Shown here: positions 14,955 through 55,392 of the stretch, piece after piece
Position numbering within the stretch: position 1 is the first letter of the stretch
Layout of the letters: each line of letters starts with the position of its first letter
IMG/VR virus record: IMGVR_UViG_3300027860_000004
Coordinates: 66,282-130,281 of that record
Length of the DNA stretch: 64,000 nucleotides
Source: a virus
Taxonomy: Duplodnaviria; Caudoviricetes
Direction: 5' to 3' (one strand)
Notes under the pieces: generated by a model
Told to the model about the DNA's origin: nothing
The model's input: the letters and a program-made list of their open reading frames with translations, nothing else
Database searches by the model: none
Program-made: the position numbers and the translations under genes

Positions 14955-15020
14955 AAAAAGGGAATACCTCGCATTCTCACTTCCTTCGCCCTACGGCGGG
15001 AAGGGGACCAACCTTCCCGC
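14955..15020 (-). ncRNA. Putative small RNA, about 60 nt
   Basis: Own promoter (-35 at 15046-51), 9-bp stem GCGGGAAGG/CCTTCCCGC, ends in a U run, no ATG at +1. Confidence 0.4.
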
Positions 15021-15047
15021 TTATTATAGAGTTAAAGGGTCGTTTTG

Positions 15048-15656
15048 TCAAATGGCCCCGCAGGGGTAATGGGTTGTCCTGGTCATCGGCGCGCACCCAT
15101 AGGCGACCAGAACACCAGAGAAGGCCCGTTCTGAATCCGTTAGGCCATCCAAACCGATTTGGTGGGGTTTGCGGCGTCCTTTGTGTTGGCCCTCTTTGTA
15201 GGCCCGTTTTTGGGCCTTCTTGTCGATACGTTGGGCCGCAAGGTCCGCTTCCAATTCTGCAAGGTGGGCCGCTTCCTCCTGGTCCTCTTCGACGGGAGCG
15301 GTTTGGGGAGCGGGTTTGACGGCGGACGCAATTTGACGAGAATACTTCGCCAATTTTCGGGCAACGAAGCGCGCTTGCTTCGGGGTTAAGGTTTGATACT
15401 TTTCGGAACCTTCCGCAATATCGGAGAGAATTTGCGCGTCGGTGCCATTGAACCCGGTTCCGTTATTATAGGCTGTCGCTTGGGCCATTTGTTCATCGGC
15501 CGTTTGGTTCGCATAAACGACTCGGAGCGCGCGGTACGTTACCTTCCGTTGAAACGGGTTGATAAGGGTCGGTTCCGTTTGTGCAACTTCTTGCAGGAAG
15601 GATTTAATACCTTCTTGTGTTTTGAGGTCATGCACGGTCGTCGTCGTGTTATTCAT
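15048..15656 (-). CDS. Conserved phage hypothetical protein
   Basis: RAL..VY.NQTADEQ....T...NG.GF.G.DA.ILS motif; leaderless promoter. Confidence 0.7.
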   Translation of the reverse strand: MNNTTTTVHDLKTQEGIKSFLQEVAQTEPTLINPFQRKVTYRALRVVYANQTADEQMAQATAYNNGTGFNGTDAQILSDIAEGSEKYQTLTPKQARFVARKLAKYSRQIASAVKPAPQTAPVEEDQEEAAHLAELEADLAAQRIDKKAQKRAYKEGQHKGRRKPHQIGLDGLTDSERAFSGVLVAYGCAPMTRTTHYPCGAI

Positions 15657-15693
15657 AACCTAATTATACATATTAGGTGGAGTTATTGCAAAT

Positions 15694-16008
15694 GAGGTTC
15701 CCCCAAAGTGACCAACCTCGGGAGAACCTCTTTGCGCCTAATCAATACACTTGAAGAGAGGTTTTGCTTTTCTTTCGTTTTTTCTTTCGTTAGTGTCTAA
15801 CCTTGTCGGATTCGGCGCGCAGTTCGCCTATCTCATACATTCAAGGTTTAAGACTCTAGGTGATTCGCTTTCTCCTTTCTTTTGGAGGAGACTCGACAAG
15901 GGCCAAGGTTACTCAGGGGAGGTGAACGTATCCCGCTAGTTCCTTGTCTCTTTCAAACCCTTGTCGATATACGTCGTAGGTGTATTCCTACGTTCCGCTT
16001 TCTCCTAC
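15694..16008 (-). ncRNA. Putative structured ncRNA, about 310 nt
   Basis: Promoter TTGACA-17-TAAACT; helices AGGAGA/TCTCCT, CGTAGG/CCTACG, TCGACAAGGG/CCCTTGTCGA; terminal GAGGTTC/GAACCTC hairpin; no minus-strand ORF. Confidence 0.6.
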
Positions 16009-17813
16009 CCTTTAAGTTTAATGCTTTTCGGGAGTTATGTCAAATGTCGAAGCGTAATACTTCTTTCCGACCGTATACGTTTCATAGGCGAGGCCATCGA
16101 AGTAATCGGCCAAGGAACAGAATCCTAGCCCGAAGTCTACAAGTAGCCAAAGGTCCGACTCCATGAAGTAAAGGCCCATACATTCGCAAATATCGCGCAC
16201 GTACACTTCTCCGGTGAAGAGGAGACGGAGCGCATTGTTGATGAGAAGGAAGGTGATAACTTTGAAGAGGTCGCAGTAAAGTTTCATCTTCGTTAGCATA
16301 CACCTTTCAATTTATTATGTCAAATGCCTTTTAGTCGGCAACCTTTACGCGAGCGTTGCGACGATGGTTCTTGTATTTGCCTTTCCCGCGCTTCTTATTG
16401 TAGGGGGAGTGCCAATCTTCGTGATACATCGTTCCGCGCTTGGTTTTGCGCGAGACTTCCAATTCGTAACGGAGGTTTGCTTCTCGAACATCCATGCGTT
16501 AAGTATAAACCTTCTTTTTAGTTAATGCAAACCAAGAGGAGGGGGTTCTATTTATTATAGTGCAAGAAAAGAGAAAGGACCCCTACCCTCGGGGGTCCGC
16601 TATTTCTCCCTTTTGGATGAGGTAGTCCGTCATTAGGTCCCCCGTAGACTTGAAGGGCGGAACATATGTCCGGTATGCTTCTCGACCCTCTTCCATCCAA
16701 GCGTCATAGCCATCTTGGTCGAGGATTGCATCGCATCGCATACAGGAGAGGAAACGGCCCTCATCGGTGGCATCATCACGCTTAATCGGTTTCTTCGGGT
16801 TGCCATACTCGAACTTTTCCATCGCGCAATCGACGCAGAGGCGTCTCTCGGATTGGTCGCTGTTGACTCGGTAGCCAACGATATCGTTTTCCATGTCCTA
16901 ACTATACACCTAACTTTTGGTTATTGCAAGTTACCAATCGAATTTAGTGCAAACGGGGCCGCATTTTTCGCGACATTCTCCAGAAGCATAGTGGTGGCGA
17001 ATATGTTCCGACCGTTTCGCTTCTCGTTGGGCCTCGCGTTGACGACGAACCTTCTCTGCTTGCGGGTCATAGGTCCGACCGAATCGGTTCACCGGGAGGG
17101 CACCGTTGGCGAGTTCATCACACCGGAGGCATCCTTCAACCTTCTTACCGAAGTTCGGGCCGTGATTGTGTTGCGTTCCCATAACCCTATATTACATTTA
17201 ATTAGGAGTTATGTCAAGGGATTTAGAAGTGCGAGAAGCCTTCTCAATTCCTTGATTTGTTCTTCTTTTGCTTCGATAGCCTTTTCCAGGGCCTTCTCGA
17301 ACGCTAGGATGGCCTCTTCTCCATCGGTGTAGAAGTCTTTGCGCGCGACGGAGTAGACTGTTCCGCAGGCAATTCTCCGACCATTATCGCGAACCTGTGA
17401 AACAGTAACTTCCCGAAGGTAAGGAATACCTTCGTGGTTACTGTCGATAATGAAACCTTCGGTTCCTTTGCGAATATCTTCCATCCTTTATATTTTAATT
17501 TAATCCCACAGTTATGTCAAGGAATAAGCCTATGATAAGTAGAAAGCAAAGAATGGAATAGAGGAGGGCTTGAAAAGCGCCCTCCTCTTTTTGGTTAATC
17601 ACCTTCGGTTCCCGTTGCTTGCAGAAACCGTTCCCGGTTGAAACGGGGGTTCGTTATCGCCAACGAATCGGCGAAGGCAAGGGCCGCAGAACGTCGAGCG
17701 GAACGGAGACTTGCCGAATGGGAAGGCATCCCTTTGATGGTGTCGGCAATCAGTTGAAAGTCTTTCTTCGTCATGTGCTTACTATAAACCTATAACGAAG
17801 TTTTGTCAAAGAC

Positions 17814-18212
17814 TTACTTTCTCCGCTTGTTGTGATTTCCCCATCCCACAGTTTTCCAAGAATGAGGGAAAATTTCTTCAATGAACATAGCGACCTTAAC
17901 AGGTATACCATACGAACGGTAGAGAGACTCCACTATGAGGGTTTGAAAGGTATCATGCCTTCCCCCTTCTCTTCCGTGATATACGTGGTCGATATAGTGC
18001 CCTAATTCGTGCAAGAGGGCCGCAGTATGTTCTGTCGTGGAACCATTTTTGCGGAAGTGTAGATAAATGATTTTGCTACGGGAAAAGTACCTTCCCGTAT
18101 CTTTGTGGGCATCACGAAGCGAAGCAACTATGACCCGAGGAGCGGGTATGCCATAATCTTTACAGACTATGTTTGCATATTCTTGTGCCCATGTGGTCAA
18201 AGAAATGTTCAC
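17814..18212 (-). CDS. Small zincin-like metallopeptidase-domain protein
   Basis: LLHELGH motif plus downstream H..F. Confidence 0.6.
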   Translation of the reverse strand: MNISLTTWAQEYANIVCKDYGIPAPRVIVASLRDAHKDTGRYFSRSKIIYLHFRKNGSTTEHTAALLHELGHYIDHVYHGREGGRHDTFQTLIVESLYRSYGIPVKVAMFIEEIFPHSWKTVGWGNHNKRRK

Positions 18213-18858
18213 TTGATAAGTATAACCTTTTTTAAGTAGTTATGTCAAAGGCTTGTTCTCTTTAATTTATTATAGAGTAAAAGAAAGAGAGGCTCCCAGG
18301 GCAAGAACCTCCTCTTCGCTTTACTTTTTCTTGCCTTTCTTGGGTTCCATGTTGCGTTGACCCTTGGAGGCACGGATTTGTGCCCGCGTCATCTTCTTAC
18401 GCTTGCGGGGTTGCTTGTCCACGGGGAGGGCCACAGGTGCCAGGATGGACAAACCCTGTTCCTCGGCGCGTTTATGCCCTTCCAGGACCCATTCGATATT
18501 GACCGGAACGGTGTTCGGATTTTGCGAGAAGTTCTTCGCAGCGAAGGGGGCGAAGGTGGTCGTCATTTGCTGTTCCATGAATTAAGTTTATACCTTCTCG
18601 GAAGTTTTTGCAAGCGAACCTTTGTTTTTATAGGCCGTTGTCCACTTGTGCCACTTGGTTCCAAAGTGTATCCCCATATGGTAGGAGACAACTCCACGAT
18701 TTTGTTTCAACGCATGAGCATAGCAGAAACGGTAAAGGCGTTGCTTCTGAAACTCTTTCACCTTCTTACTCTATCATAAACTGAAAGATAAAGCAAATAT
18801 AGTTTTAAGATATTATAGCATTAAAGGAAGAAAAGAACCCCCGGAGGGGGTCTAGTTG

Positions 18859-18885
18859 TTAGCCGAAAAGTTTGTCAAGTTTCAT
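18859..18885 (-). CDS. 8-aa minigene MKLDKLFG
   Basis: TTGCAA-17-TATAAT-CAGGTT-ATG, stop after 8 codons, then a terminator hairpin. Confidence 0.55.
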   Translation of the reverse strand: MKLDKLFG

Positions 18886-54840: not shown

Positions 54841-54938
54841 GTTTCAATTCTATAATAAATAGAGTATCTTTAAAGAGATACTCTAAAAAATCCTTACTTG
54901 ACAAAACATACTCAAAACACTATACTAAAAATGGATAT

Positions 54939-54999
54939 GGGACCGCAGCCGATGCGGCATGACAGGTAAATGTGGGTTCAACTCCCATCGGTTCCACCA
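54939..54999 (+). ncRNA. 61-nt mini-tRNA lacking the anticodon arm, G3:U70 Ala identity, CCA encoded
   Basis: GGGACCG/CGGTTCC-A-CCA; GCCG/CGGC D-like hairpin; GTGGG-TTCAACT-CCCAT; own promoter TTGACA-17-TATACT. Confidence 0.8.
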
Positions 55000-55035
55000 T
55001 TTGACAGAATCCTTTCTGTATGATATAGTCTAAAT

Positions 55036-55172
55036 GTCTCCTAGTTATGCCAACTCAAAATTGGTCCCTTGAATGGGATATATAGAAAATAACTAGGTAT
55101 TCTGGTCCCGGATGATTGTGGGTTACCCATAGGGATGATGAGGAACAACTCGGATGCATACGAGCCTCATCC
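55036..55172 (+). ncRNA. Putative structured RNA (three-way junction plus two hairpins)
   Basis: Promoter TTGACA-17-TATAGT; CCTAGTTAT/ATAACTAGG enclosing CCAA/TTGG and TCCC/GGGA; GATGAGG/CCTCATC. Confidence 0.6.
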
Positions 55173-55189
55173 TAAAATTTTAAAAATTT

Positions 55190-55300
55190 GATAGCTGATG
55201 GCAAGCATCGAAGCTGCGACTGTCCTTAATCGGGTAGCAGGTGGAAATCGGCGTAGGCGGTTCGCTACCGCTGTGAAGGTTCGACTCCTTCCAGTTATCA
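55190..55300 (+). ncRNA. Class II tRNA-like RNA with 33-nt two-hairpin insert in place of the anticodon loop
   Basis: GATAGCTG/CAGTTATC, T-arm GAAGG-TTCGACT-CCTTC, variable arm GCGGT/ACCGC, stem CTGCG/CGTAG. Confidence 0.7.
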
Positions 55301-55362
55301 ATTAAAACTTCCGGTATGGCTGAATAGCGCCGATTTCTAGAATGCAAGGCGACCATACTTCC

Positions 55363-55392
55363 GAAACCCTCATCTTTTGATGGGGGTTTTCG
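55363..55392 (+). terminator. Terminator-like hairpin closing the RNA cluster
   Basis: cgaaaccctcatc-tttt-gatgggggttttcg. Confidence 0.7.

What the first reader, a model, noticed from the sequence alone, without database searches (positions are those of the whole stretch)
14955..55392. About 20 structured ncRNA units interleaved with early genes, mostly with their own promoters
Seen: the promoter that elsewhere sits 6 nt before an ATG instead fires into ORF-free, helix-rich segments, usually ending in a terminator or the next promoter. Positions are near 15.0, 15.7-16.0, 18.9, 20.0, 26.2, 29.8, 36.8-38.0 (five), 38.5, 46.5, 49.4, 52.9-53.3 (three) and 54.0-55.4 kb (six). Many have their first helix starting at the predicted +1, and several have GNRA-type loops. 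Inference: RNA genes are used as interchangeable promoter-gene-terminator cassettes, like the small proteins, probably for anti-defence or host takeover. I recognise none as a named Rfam family.
Basis: partly seen in the sequence, partly recalled or inferred. Interest (0 to 1): 0.88.

Follow-up and report, generated by a model that had tools for sequence, protein, structure and literature searches.

The report
Phage early block with ~19 RNA-only cassettes
An uncultivated 130-kb phage carries, among its small early protein genes, about nineteen strong host-type promoters that appear to drive short non-coding RNAs instead of proteins, several shaped like tRNAs with large inserts; none belongs to a described RNA family and their function is unknown.

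Summary
Window 14-56 kb is a higher-GC block of a 130,281-bp myovirus-like genome. It carries about 70 sigma70-type promoters (TTGACAWAACT or TTGCAATAACT, N17, TATAAT). Forty sit exactly 6 nt before an ATG, giving leaderless genes. Nineteen (16 minus strand, 3 plus strand) fire into 62-467-nt segments that have no start codon at +1, no credible ORF and non-coding codon usage.

These RNA units use the best promoters. As a set they have more hairpins, tetraloops and GNRA loops than shuffles or coding DNA. Only 7 of 21 tested segments beat shuffles clearly on folding energy.

Five are tRNA-derived:
- Three are cloverleaves with 40-109-nt inserts in the anticodon loop.
- One is a 61-nt Ala-type mini-tRNA.
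- One is a weak tRNA-like 3' end.

Rfam gives nothing else, and no homologue was found in any collection I could reach.

Contigs of ~90%-identical relatives gain or lose whole units, which supports "interchangeable cassettes". One unit (38.5 kb) is far better conserved than the gene next to it. Expression, covariation and function (anti-defence or takeover) could not be tested.

Other first-stage notes on this same genome overlap this finding. No look-alike was noted on other DNA.

Verdict: real, unusual, probably a new variant of phage-encoded small and tRNA-like RNA genes.

The parts
14955..15051 (-). U1: perfect promoter (15051-15023) plus a ~62-nt RNA that ends at the next promoter
   Evidence: 12/12 promoter. 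5' hairpin from +1. MFE z -1.35. Codon score -0.02.
15700..16043 (-). U2: promoter plus a ~309-nt multi-helix RNA
   Evidence: z -2.51. Codon score -0.30. 5' hairpin GTAGG..CCTAC.
18925..19042 (-). U3: promoter plus a ~83-nt RNA. This is the weakest unit.
   Evidence: 11/12 promoter. z +0.14. No 5' hairpin. Codon score -0.13.
18826..18920 (-). Ambiguous cassette: TTGCAA promoter, an 8-codon leaderless ORF, then a terminator
   Evidence: 8 aa. Terminator 18852-18836. It could be a micropeptide gene or a small RNA.
19948..20203 (-). U4: promoter plus a ~221-nt RNA with a 7-bp 5' hairpin and a terminal hairpin with a U-rich tail
   Evidence: z -1.19. Codon score -0.36.
26170..26426 (-). U5: perfect promoter plus a ~222-nt RNA containing a T arm and a 6-bp acceptor-like stem. 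It is tRNA-like only at a relaxed threshold.
   Evidence: 12/12 promoter. T arm. ARAGORN at ps95 calls c[26212,26371] with a 66-nt insert. No Rfam hit. z -1.91.
29742..29946 (-). U6: weaker TTGCAA promoter plus a ~170-nt RNA with short tandem repeats and a terminal hairpin
   Evidence: z -1.43. Codon score -0.43.
36797..37298 (-). U10: perfect promoter, a ~350-nt 5' domain, then a tRNA cloverleaf (36914-36797, encoded CCA) whose 7-nt anticodon loop is replaced by 47 nt
   Evidence: 12/12 promoter. Rfam tRNA 44.9 bits with a 47-nt insert. ARAGORN -i calls Thr(tgt) with a 40-nt insert. The cloverleaf appears in the MFE fold. Absent from relatives X3/X4.
37302..37511 (-). U9: promoter plus a ~175-nt RNA closed by a long-range 13-bp stem
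   Evidence: z -3.48. Structure. A possible 17-codon ORF has codon score -0.28.
37535..38023 (-). U8: promoter, a ~235-nt 5' domain, then a tRNA-like element (37754-37569) with a 109-nt insert and no encoded CCA
   Evidence: T arm plus 7-bp acceptor. ARAGORN -i. z -0.47. A 25-codon GTG ORF at +1 has codon score 0.33 and cannot be excluded.
38458..38569 (-). U7: promoter plus a 77-nt two-hairpin RNA. This is the best-conserved unit.
   Evidence: z -5.43. In relatives X3/X4 it shows 1 change in 77 nt, and that change turns a predicted G.U pair into A-U. The adjacent gene shows 35 changes in 323 nt (Fisher p=0.003).
46540..46794 (-). U11: promoter plus a ~220-nt RNA with an intrinsic terminator
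   Evidence: z -2.32. A 36-codon ORF from an ATG 2 nt upstream of the usual +1 has codon score -0.15, like the null.
49345..49613 (-). U12: promoter plus a ~234-nt RNA with a perfect 5' hairpin and two terminator-like hairpins
   Evidence: z -4.08. Terminators. In relatives the 5' hairpin (49517-49581) is replaced by 8-10 nt.
52860..53004 (-). U13: perfect promoter plus a 110-nt RNA (5' hairpin, middle hairpin, terminator)
   Evidence: 12/12 promoter. z -3.82. Structure.
53028..53163 (-). U14: perfect promoter plus a 101-nt RNA with the same three-hairpin layout as U13
   Evidence: 12/12 promoter. z -3.40. Missing or replaced in relatives X3/X4.
53190..53292 (-). U15: promoter plus a 68-nt RNA that is mostly one 20-bp GAAA-capped terminator hairpin
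   Evidence: z -7.91. Terminator 53235-53192. Missing or replaced in relatives.
53958..54311 (-). U16: perfect promoter plus a ~319-nt multi-helix RNA with three GNRA loops and a terminator
   Evidence: 12/12 promoter. z -3.50. Loops. Present in relative X3 at ~93% identity (table 8).
54385..54842 (+). U17: divergent plus-strand promoter plus a ~423-nt RNA with a 5' hairpin and a terminator
   Evidence: Promoter 54385-54413. Fold z -2.19, with 0 of 100 shuffles as stable.
54898..54999 (+). U18: promoter plus a 61-67-nt mini-tRNA with a 7-bp acceptor carrying G3:U70, a T arm, encoded ACCA, and no anticodon arm
   Evidence: Rfam tmRNA 26.5 bits (below the gathering score of 47), aligning only the tRNA-like ends. 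Its 3' half pattern lies at tmRNA 3' ends in 91 of 120 bacterial loci and in tRNA-Ala in 6.
55001..55300 (+). U19: promoter, a ~155-nt 5' domain, then a weak tRNA-like element with a canonical T arm
   Evidence: Promoter. T arm. ARAGORN calls a poor tRNA-Ala(cgc) at 55227-55299. Rfam tRNA-Sec 21.4 bits, below threshold. z -1.66.

Best explanation
The 14-56 kb block is an early or accessory region built from self-contained cassettes, each read by the host sigma70-type RNA polymerase. Most cassettes make leaderless mRNAs.

Nineteen cassettes instead make RNAs that are the final product. Three features are consistent with stable, discrete RNAs:
- The promoters are near-consensus.
- Most RNAs have a hairpin at the very 5' end.
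- The 3' end is set by a terminator hairpin, or by a tRNA-like element that RNase P and 3'-end enzymes could process.

The set is heterogeneous:
- Five tRNA-derived RNAs: three cloverleaves with a large insert in place of the anticodon loop, one Ala-type mini-tRNA, and one weak tRNA-like 3' end.
- Six small RNAs of 62-110 nt built from one to three hairpins.
- Eight RNAs or 5' domains of 170-470 nt with several helices.

The cassettes are accessory. Close relatives gain, lose or swap them by recombination at the repeated promoters.

Shown here: the promoters, the non-coding nature, the tRNA shapes, the collective excess of structure, and cassette-level variation.

Inferred: transcription, early timing, processing, and a role in dealing with host RNA-directed functions (tRNA-targeting defences, trans-translation, RNases). 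I hold that last step at about 25-30%.
For: Promoter family and its coupling to the start codon:
- 40 promoters have ATG exactly 6 nt after the -10.
- 19 promoters have no start codon there.

The RNA units use the best promoters:
- The exact TTGACA -35 occurs in 15 of 17 RNA-unit promoters and 13 of 48 gene promoters (Fisher p=1.4e-5).
- 6 of the 9 perfect 12/12 promoters drive RNA units (p=0.012).

Non-coding:
- 21 of 21 segments have codon scores at or below 0.05, against 0.06-0.77 for genes.
- No SD-led ORF was found.

Structure:
- MFE z is below -3 in 7 of 21 segments against 3 of 76 coding controls (p=7e-4).
- GNRA tetraloops number 7 against 1.75+-1.2 in shuffles (0 of 40 reach 7) and 1.4+-0.9 in coding sets.
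- 5' hairpins occur in 13 of 19 units.

tRNA shapes:
- Rfam tRNA scores 44.9 bits for 36800-36914, with 47 nt in place of the loop.
It in 20 shuffled windows, and 1 among 68 tRNA calls in 2.2 Mb of other viral or metagenomic loci.
- For the mini-tRNA.

Selection and modularity:
- U7 has 1 change in 77 nt against 35 in 323 nt in the neighbouring gene, and the change preserves a predicted pair.
- Relatives show unit-level gain and loss with breakpoints at promoters.
Against: - No RNA-seq run holds the phage, so transcription, ends and timing are unproven.
- No covariation test was possible. No DNA of a relative could be fetched, and the units have no paralogues.
- 12 of 21 segments have MFE z above -2, including the two largest (U8 -0.47, U10 -0.89) and U3 (+0.14). 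That is no better than coding DNA of the block (means -0.7 and -1.2). True tRNAs of this phage also range from +0.6 to -3.7, so this test is weak in both directions.
- Much of the strong z signal in U12-U15 comes from terminator hairpins.
- Several units are absent from ~90%-identical relatives, so they are dispensable.
- U8 begins with GTG and a 25-codon ORF with gene-like codon usage.
- The PWM was trained partly on the RNA-unit promoters, so the PWM-score comparison is biased. The hexamer counts are not.
Confidence: 0.6

Rival explanations
1. The insert-bearing cloverleaves (36.8, 37.6 and perhaps 26.2 kb) are ordinary decoding tRNAs interrupted by short introns. After excision and ligation they would supply A/U-ending codons for the AT-rich late genes, like the phage's other tRNAs.
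For: ARAGORN can excise 40 nt from 36797-36914 and leave a canonical CUUGUGU loop, tRNA-Thr(UGU) with encoded CCA. The phage's plain tRNAs read A-ending codons: Leu-UAA, Arg-UCU, Lys-UUU. The phage encodes an RNA ligase. One other viral contig (L155) has a tRNA-Leu(taa) call with a 49-nt insert.
Against: The inserts (40-109 nt) are too short for group I introns, and Rfam finds no intron family at E<=10 in 36750-38600. The proposed insert positions are not the canonical 37/38 site. In the MFE fold the would-be anticodon UGU is buried in an extended stem. The 37.6-kb element needs an A34 anticodon, two G.U pairs in the stem and has no CCA. No splicing endonuclease was identified. With a free choice of excision point, a 7-nt loop is easy to obtain by chance.
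Confidence: 0.15
2. Many of the weakly structured units (U1, U3, U4, U6, U8 5' part, U10 5' part, U19 5' part) are decayed or emptied cassettes. These would be former protein genes or spacers that still sit behind a promoter, with no function of their own.
For: 12 of 21 segments fold no better than coding DNA. No homologue was found anywhere. Units are missing from close relatives.
Against: A decaying cassette would not be expected to keep the strongest promoters in the block (6 of 9 perfect ones; TTGACA in 15 of 17). No remnant of coding signal is seen in any frame. The set has an excess of hairpins and GNRA loops over coding DNA. 5' hairpins sit at the predicted +1.
Confidence: 0.15
3. Some units encode micropeptides translated from leaderless or near-leaderless starts. 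Candidates are U8 (GTG, 25 codons), U9 (17 codons), U11 (36 codons) and the 18.85-kb cassette (8 codons).
For: Start codons lie at or within 2 nt of the predicted +1. The U8 ORF has a codon score of 0.33, inside the gene range. A real gene at 18212 uses a leaderless GTG.
Against: Codon scores of the U9 and U11 ORFs (-0.28, -0.15) match the wrong-frame null (mean -0.20). The null's 95th percentile is 0.34, so the U8 value is not significant. The U8 5' end is locked in a GAAA-capped hairpin, which should hinder leaderless initiation (my own knowledge). Most of each unit lies beyond the ORF.
Confidence: 0.08

Closest known systems
Stable small RNAs and tRNA clusters of T4-like and T5-like phages (T4 RNAs C and D beside its tRNA genes). 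Recalled, not checked in a paper here.
   Same: Phage-encoded non-coding RNAs of unknown function sit among tRNA genes in an early or accessory region, are made by the host polymerase, and are processed with tRNAs.
   Different: Here nearly every RNA has its own consensus promoter, there are about 19 of them interleaved with leaderless protein cassettes, and none matches a described family.
tmRNA tRNA-like domain and tRNA-Ala acceptor (Rfam RF00023)
   Same: The 54939-54999 RNA has a G3:U70 acceptor, a T arm and ACCA. The same 3'-half pattern lies at tmRNA 3' ends in 91 of 120 bacterial loci and in tRNA-Ala in 6.
   Different: It has no mRNA-like domain, tag ORF or pseudoknots. It scores 26.5 bits, below the gathering score of 47. 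ARAGORN calls no tmRNA.
Engineered 'tRNA scaffold' RNAs, where cargo replaces the anticodon arm, and 3'-end formation by a downstream tRNA-like element (MALAT1-mascRNA; sRNAs cut from tRNA operon spacers such as 3'ETS-leuZ). Recalled.
   Same: A tRNA body is kept with a structured insert where the anticodon loop should be. A structured RNA lies directly upstream of a tRNA-like element at 37.2, 37.9 and 55.0 kb.
   Different: These are natural and phage-encoded. Processing by RNase P was not tested, and the insert could instead be an intron.
Large ornate phage-associated RNAs GOLLD and ROOL (search listings only: 10.1101/2024.12.08.627333, PMC5737381)
   Same: Structured RNAs of unknown function are carried by phages, often near tRNA genes.
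   Different: No Rfam hit to either family. The units here are smaller (62-467 nt) and numerous, and each has its own promoter.
Phage tRNAs that evade tRNA-targeting defences (search listings only: PMC11555353, PMC12445682)
   Same: Phage-encoded tRNA-type RNAs act as counter-defence. Altered anticodon arms would be expected to resist or decoy anticodon nucleases.
   Different: No defence system or host is known here, so this is a functional analogy only.
Arrays of small early or host-takeover genes behind strong host-type promoters (e.g. the SPO1 host-takeover module, T7/T5 early regions). Recalled.
   Same: Many short units, each with a strong sigma70-type promoter, are clustered at one genome end and vary between relatives.
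   Different: The mRNAs here are leaderless, and more than a quarter of the promoters (19 of about 70) drive non-coding RNAs.

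Membership tests
Any Rfam 15 family | Covariance-model score at or above the family's gathering score | tested here: not met
   The whole window at gathering threshold gives only 7 tRNA hits. E-value mode on 14000-56500, 36750-38600, 52800-55450 and 14900-20250 adds only chance-level hits and the sub-threshold tmRNA match.
tRNA (RF00005), for 36797-36914 | Acceptor, D, anticodon-stem and T arms | tested here: met
   44.9 bits against a gathering score of 29, with all four stems aligned. 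The cloverleaf appears in the MFE fold.
tRNA (RF00005), for 36797-36914 | 7-nt anticodon loop | tested here: not met
   47 nt stand where the model has 7.
tRNA, for 37569-37754 and 26212-26371 | Cloverleaf recognised by tRNA finders | tested here: inconclusive
   ARAGORN calls them only when inserts are allowed (109 nt and 66 nt), and the second only at ps95. Rfam gives no hit. There were 0 such calls in 20 shuffled windows.
tmRNA (RF00023), for 54939-54999 | tRNA-like domain plus mRNA-like domain with a tag ORF | tested here: not met
   Only the two ends of the model align. The score is 26.5 bits against a gathering score of 47. No ARAGORN tmRNA call.
Group I intron in a bacterial or phage tRNA | Intron with a group I core (at least ~200 nt) in the anticodon loop | tested here: not met
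   The inserts are 40, 109 and 66 nt. No intron family appears at E<=10 in 36750-38600.
Leaderless protein-coding cassette of this block | ATG (or GTG) 6 nt after the -10, an ORF, and gene-like codon usage | tested here: not met
   No start codon at that place in 18 of 19 units. U8 has GTG with a 25-codon ORF. Codon scores are at or below 0.05 for all 21 segments.
Independent small-RNA gene (generic) | Own promoter and own 3' end (intrinsic terminator or processing site) | tested here: met
   All 19 have promoters. By my reading of the sequence, 8 have terminator hairpins with U-rich tails: U4, U6, U11, U12, U13, U15, U16, U17. The tool confirms those for U12 and U15. The others end in a hairpin without a U run or in a tRNA-like element.
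GOLLD / ROOL / other large ornate RNAs | Match to the family model | tested here: not met
   No hit.
Conserved structured RNA (by covariation) | Compensatory base changes across homologues | not testable with these tools
   No DNA of a relative could be fetched. The variant table was cut after 40 of 1217 rows.

The most novel reading that the evidence does not exclude
This phage treats RNA as a full class of accessory gene. It would field a battery of 15 or more unrelated early RNAs, each in a swappable promoter-to-terminator cassette, in parallel with its small early proteins. Natural tRNA-scaffolded cargo RNAs and an anticodon-less Ala mini-tRNA would act as decoys, sponges or inhibitors of host RNA-directed defence and quality-control systems.
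Probability: 0.3. Interest if true: 0.85.

Novelty: new variant of a known kind. Interest (0 to 1): 0.7.

Why it matters
Phage counter-defence and host takeover are studied almost entirely as protein functions. A genome in which more than a quarter of the early promoters, and the strongest ones, drive non-coding RNAs would give about 19 compact RNA candidates that can be tested directly: synthesise each cassette and screen it. It would also give natural examples of the tRNA-scaffold design used in RNA engineering, and a minimal alanine-type tRNA mimic. The cassette architecture also shows how such RNAs could be exchanged between related phages.

Tried and rejected
Homologues for a covariation test. 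All attempts failed:
- blastn 'distant' against 50,697 phage records with 36000-40000, 52800-55450 and 14900-20250 gave no match.
- Viral-contig scans with the DUF932 protein, the sheath protein and an exact 28-nt piece of U7 gave no relative.
- A viral-contig scan with a 10-sequence DUF932 alignment gave 80 loci, all at or below 37% identity, with no unit homologue.
- Metagenome contigs with an alignment of the 299-aa protein and its 85-86% relatives gave none. With P0002 it gave only 23-25% hits.
- Genome contigs with the same 299-aa alignment gave none.
- The earlier-findings look-up found no look-alike window.
- blastn-short of the units against the whole genome found no paralogue or long antisense match.

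Promoter-pattern scan of viral contigs: only single matches per locus. Rescanning with the PWM picked out three unrelated contigs with similar leaderless arrays (L025, L103, L038). They hold no homologues of the units.

Sequencing runs: no RNA holder is listed.

A tmRNA reading of the 26.2-kb unit was rejected: no ARAGORN tmRNA call, no Rfam hit, and no plausible tag ORF by eye.

A 6S-like, ribozyme or riboswitch identity for any unit has no Rfam support.

MFE z-score as a per-unit test is uninformative. The phage's own tRNAs range from +0.6 to -3.7.

Literature: three searches gave context papers that I saw only as listings and abstract starts. No paper was read in full, and none describes this phage or such an RNA cassette array. 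That absence rests on those three searches alone. Supplementary files were not consulted.

Full report
What the window is. The window is the last 64 kb of a single 130,281-bp contig. The contig has a tail sheath, a tape-measure-like lysin protein and an RNA ligase, and only distant protein similarity to actinobacteriophages. It is held by sequencing runs labelled moss metagenome. GC is about 30% in the flanks and 35-53% in window 14-56 kb.

The block and its promoters. Within 14-56 kb, genes run on the minus strand up to 54.3 kb and on the plus strand beyond it. A sigma70-type promoter recurs about 70 times, in two -35 flavours (TTGACAWAACT and TTGCAATAACT), followed by N17 and TATAAT. This is far above chance:
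- 81 minus-strand and 18 plus-strand PWM hits in the genome, against 30-33 for both strands together in five shuffles.
- 93 vs 53+-7 and 82 vs 33+-5 in the tool's own scans.

Forty promoters have ATG exactly 6 nt after the -10. Eight more have a start codon 6-9 nt after it.

The observation. I count 19 such promoters:
- 16 on the minus strand, with -10 ending at 15023, 16015, 19014, 20175, 26398, 29918, 37270, 37483, 37995, 38541, 46766, 49585, 52976, 53135, 53264 and 54283.
- 3 on the plus strand, at 54413, 54926 and 55029.

They drive about 4.0 kb in all, in units of 62-467 nt. Each unit ends at a hairpin, a tRNA-like element or the next cassette's promoter, and each downstream gene has a promoter of its own. 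The units are therefore not 5' leaders.

The stretch 54420-54842 on the plus strand is one 423-nt RNA with a 5' hairpin and a terminator, so 54.0-55.4 kb holds four promoter units rather than six. A twentieth cassette at 18.85 kb has only an 8-codon ORF and a terminator, and it is ambiguous.

Are the units non-coding? In the 21 segments tested, no ORF has a Shine-Dalgarno-led or leaderless start beyond 25 codons. A codon-usage log-odds score was trained on the block's leaderless genes:
- All 21 segments score -0.43 to +0.05 in their best frame.
- The genes score a mean of 0.435, with a minimum of 0.059.
- The genes were also the training set, which flatters them somewhat.

ORFs that could start at or near +1 were scored separately:
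- U11, 36 codons: -0.15. This is like the wrong-frame null (mean -0.20).
- U9, 17 codons: -0.28. Also like the null.
- U8, 25 codons from GTG: 0.33. This is inside the gene range but also at the null's 95th percentile (0.34), so it cannot be excluded.

Are the units structured? The answer is mixed and I give both sides.

Per unit, MFE z-scores against dinucleotide shuffles are:
- below -3 in 7 of 21 segments (U7, U9, U12, U13, U14, U15, U16);
- between -2 and -3 in 2 segments;
- above -2 in 12 segments, including the two largest, U8 at -0.47 and U10 at -0.89.

Coding segments of the same block average -0.7 and -1.2, with 3 of 76 below -3 (Fisher p=7e-4). In U12-U15 much of the signal is the terminator hairpin. 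The phage's six ordinary tRNAs score from +0.6 to -3.7, so this test cannot reject structure either.

As a set, the units have 108 hairpins, 35 tetraloops and 7 GNRA tetraloops in their MFE folds. Forty shuffles gave 87+-5, 20.6+-4.9 and 1.75+-1.2, and none reached 7 GNRA loops. Twenty-five length-matched coding sets gave 92+-5, 21+-5 and 1.4+-0.9, with a maximum of 4.

A hairpin begins at nucleotides 6-8 after the -10 in 13 of 19 units, against a 43% background rate inside the units (P=0.02). Ten units start with GT at the predicted +1.

Promoter strength. The RNA units have the best promoters in the block:
- An exact TTGACA -35 occurs in 15 of 17 scored RNA-unit promoters and in 13 of 48 gene promoters. 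Gene promoters mostly use TTGCAA (p=1.4e-5).
- 6 of the 9 perfect 12/12 promoters found by the tool drive RNA units: 54311, 53163, 53004, 37298, 26426 and 15051.

This is what stable-RNA genes would be expected to look like, and it is hard to reconcile with decaying cassettes.

tRNA-derived members. A scan for a T arm followed by an acceptor strand that pairs with an upstream 7-mer found the ordinary tRNAs plus expanded elements at 36.8, 37.6, 26.2 and 55.27 kb and a miniature one at 54.97 kb.
- 36800-36914: Rfam aligns it to tRNA at 44.9 bits. All stems are present, and 47 nt stand where the 7-nt anticodon loop should be.
At a relaxed threshold it also calls 26212-26371 with a 66-nt insert.
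- Controls: ARAGORN made no such call in 20 shuffled windows at either threshold. It made one, in L155, among 68 tRNA calls in 2.2 Mb of other viral and metagenomic loci.
- All tRNA-type genes of the genome lie in this block.
- 54939-54999: this 61-nt RNA has a 7-bp acceptor with G3:U70, a T arm and ACCA, but no anticodon arm. Rfam aligns only the two ends of the tmRNA model (26.5 bits against a gathering score of 47). A pattern of its 3' half lies at tmRNA 3' ends in 91 of 120 bacterial loci and in tRNA-Ala in 6.

At 37.2, 37.9 and 55.0 kb, a structured 155-350-nt RNA directly precedes a tRNA-like element. RNase P cleavage could therefore define its 3' end. This is inference and was not tested.

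Relatives. Laying contigs of four public runs on 36500-56400 showed one near-identical strain (X2) and relatives at roughly 88-95% identity (X3 soil; X4/X5 moss).

Three results bear on the finding.

First, whole units come and go:
- X3 joins 36796 to 37500, so U10 and U9 are missing.
- X3 has almost no depth over 37164-37827 and diverges at 38234, so the whole 1.2-kb RNA-only locus is absent or replaced. X4/X5 also have almost no depth there.
- X3 joins 53036 to 53795.
- X4/X5 replace 53045-53292 (U15 and U14, starting exactly at the -35 of U15) with 86 other letters.
- X3 and X4 replace the first ~65 nt of U12, a perfect hairpin, with 8-10 nt.
- The tRNA cluster at 47.7-48.6 kb also varies.

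Second, other units are kept at about the same identity as coding DNA. U16/U17 are about 93% identical, against about 91% for the neighbouring contig (table 8).

Third, the table of differences appears complete over 38417-38905. It shows one change in the 77 nt of U7 against 35 in the first 323 nt of the adjacent gene (p=0.003). The one change (G38 to A on the RNA strand) turns a predicted G.U pair into A-U. The table was cut at 40 of 1217 rows, so this could not be done for other units.

What it is, and how it most likely works. The best reading is that these are RNA genes packaged like the neighbouring protein genes: a host-type promoter, a product and an end signal. They differ in having stronger promoters and 5'-terminal hairpins, which would favour abundant, stable RNAs. 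The set is heterogeneous. No two units are similar in sequence, although U13 and U14 share a promoter spacer and a three-hairpin layout. The units are accessory and exchangeable.

A role against host RNA-directed systems is plausible for three reasons:
- tRNA mimics are present.
- A tmRNA-like Ala minihelix is present.
- The phage encodes an RNA ligase and a cyclic-phosphate-processing receiver-domain protein next to U11.

This role remains an inference, at about 25-30%.

Rivals:
- The insert-bearing cloverleaves are intron-containing decoding tRNAs. Thr-UGU would fit the phage's A/U-ending tRNA set. I hold this at about 15% for that subset.
- The weakly structured units are emptied cassettes (about 15%).
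- A few units encode micropeptides (about 8%).

Comparison with what is known. Phage small RNAs and tRNA clusters are known. So are large phage-borne RNAs near tRNA genes, and phage tRNAs used to evade tRNA-cleaving defences (search listings; the T4, SPO1 and tRNA-scaffold parallels are recalled). The differences here are:
- the number of RNA units, about 19 in 42 kb;
- one consensus promoter per RNA;
- interleaving with leaderless protein cassettes;
- tRNA bodies with large anticodon-loop inserts;
- the absence of any match to 4227 Rfam families apart from tRNA.

I therefore file this as a new variant of a known kind, not as a member of any named family.

Limits. There is no expression data and no covariation. 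The host is unknown. Unit ends are predicted rather than mapped. The PWM-based promoter scores are partly circular, although the hexamer counts are not. Several first-stage notes on the same genome overlap this finding. I used one as a lead to the plus-strand promoter at 54385 and tested the rest independently.

Noticed in passing
window 16548-56268, e.g. minus strand 16548, 18263, 23066, 25763, 27153, 36778, 38448, 39655; plus strand 30967, 33657, 46513, 50234, 54850, 55765, 56256: A second recurrent motif, CTATAATAAATAG, gives 80 matches at up to 3 mismatches against 46+-7 in shuffles. The close copies sit between a cassette's terminator and the next promoter. They lie on the minus strand up to ~43 kb and mostly inverted beyond 46 kb. 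It could be a second (phage-specific) promoter class, a protein-binding site, or a cassette-boundary or recombination site.
   Followed up: partly
window 14000-56000: The cassette block has 35-53% GC against ~30% in the rest of the genome. GC falls steadily from the 14-kb end (53%) to ~50 kb (35%).
   Followed up: no
window 49517-49581: The perfect 15-bp hairpin at the 5' end of the 49.5-kb RNA is replaced by 8-10 nt in two sets of relatives (X3, X4/X5). It behaves like an inserted or deleted hairpin element.
   Followed up: partly
window 47709-48627: The tRNA cluster and the 151-aa ORF inside it (47808-48263, no Pfam match) vary between close relatives. X3 skips 47710-48187, 48280-48432 and 48444-48626.
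   Followed up: no
window 46072-46470 and 5689-6825: A protein with a cyclic-phosphate-processing receiver domain (cREC_REC, E 1.6e-11) lies directly downstream of the 46.7-kb RNA unit. An RNA ligase lies outside the block. Together they hint at RNA repair functions.
   Followed up: no
L025 (13.5 kb), L103 (11.3 kb), L038 (6.1 kb), all IMG/VR contigs: Unrelated uncultivated viral contigs also carry arrays of TTGACA-N17-TATAAT promoters with ATG exactly 6 nt after the -10. The leaderless-cassette architecture is therefore not unique to this phage.
   Followed up: partly
L155:4916-5051: ARAGORN calls a tRNA-Leu(taa) with a 49-nt insert in another IMG/VR contig. It was the only insert-bearing call among 68 tRNA calls in 2.2 Mb of comparison loci.
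   Followed up: no
window 50187 and 18885 (minus strand): Two leaderless promoters are followed by mini-ORFs of 2 and 8 codons. The first is followed at once by an SD-led gene start.
   Followed up: no
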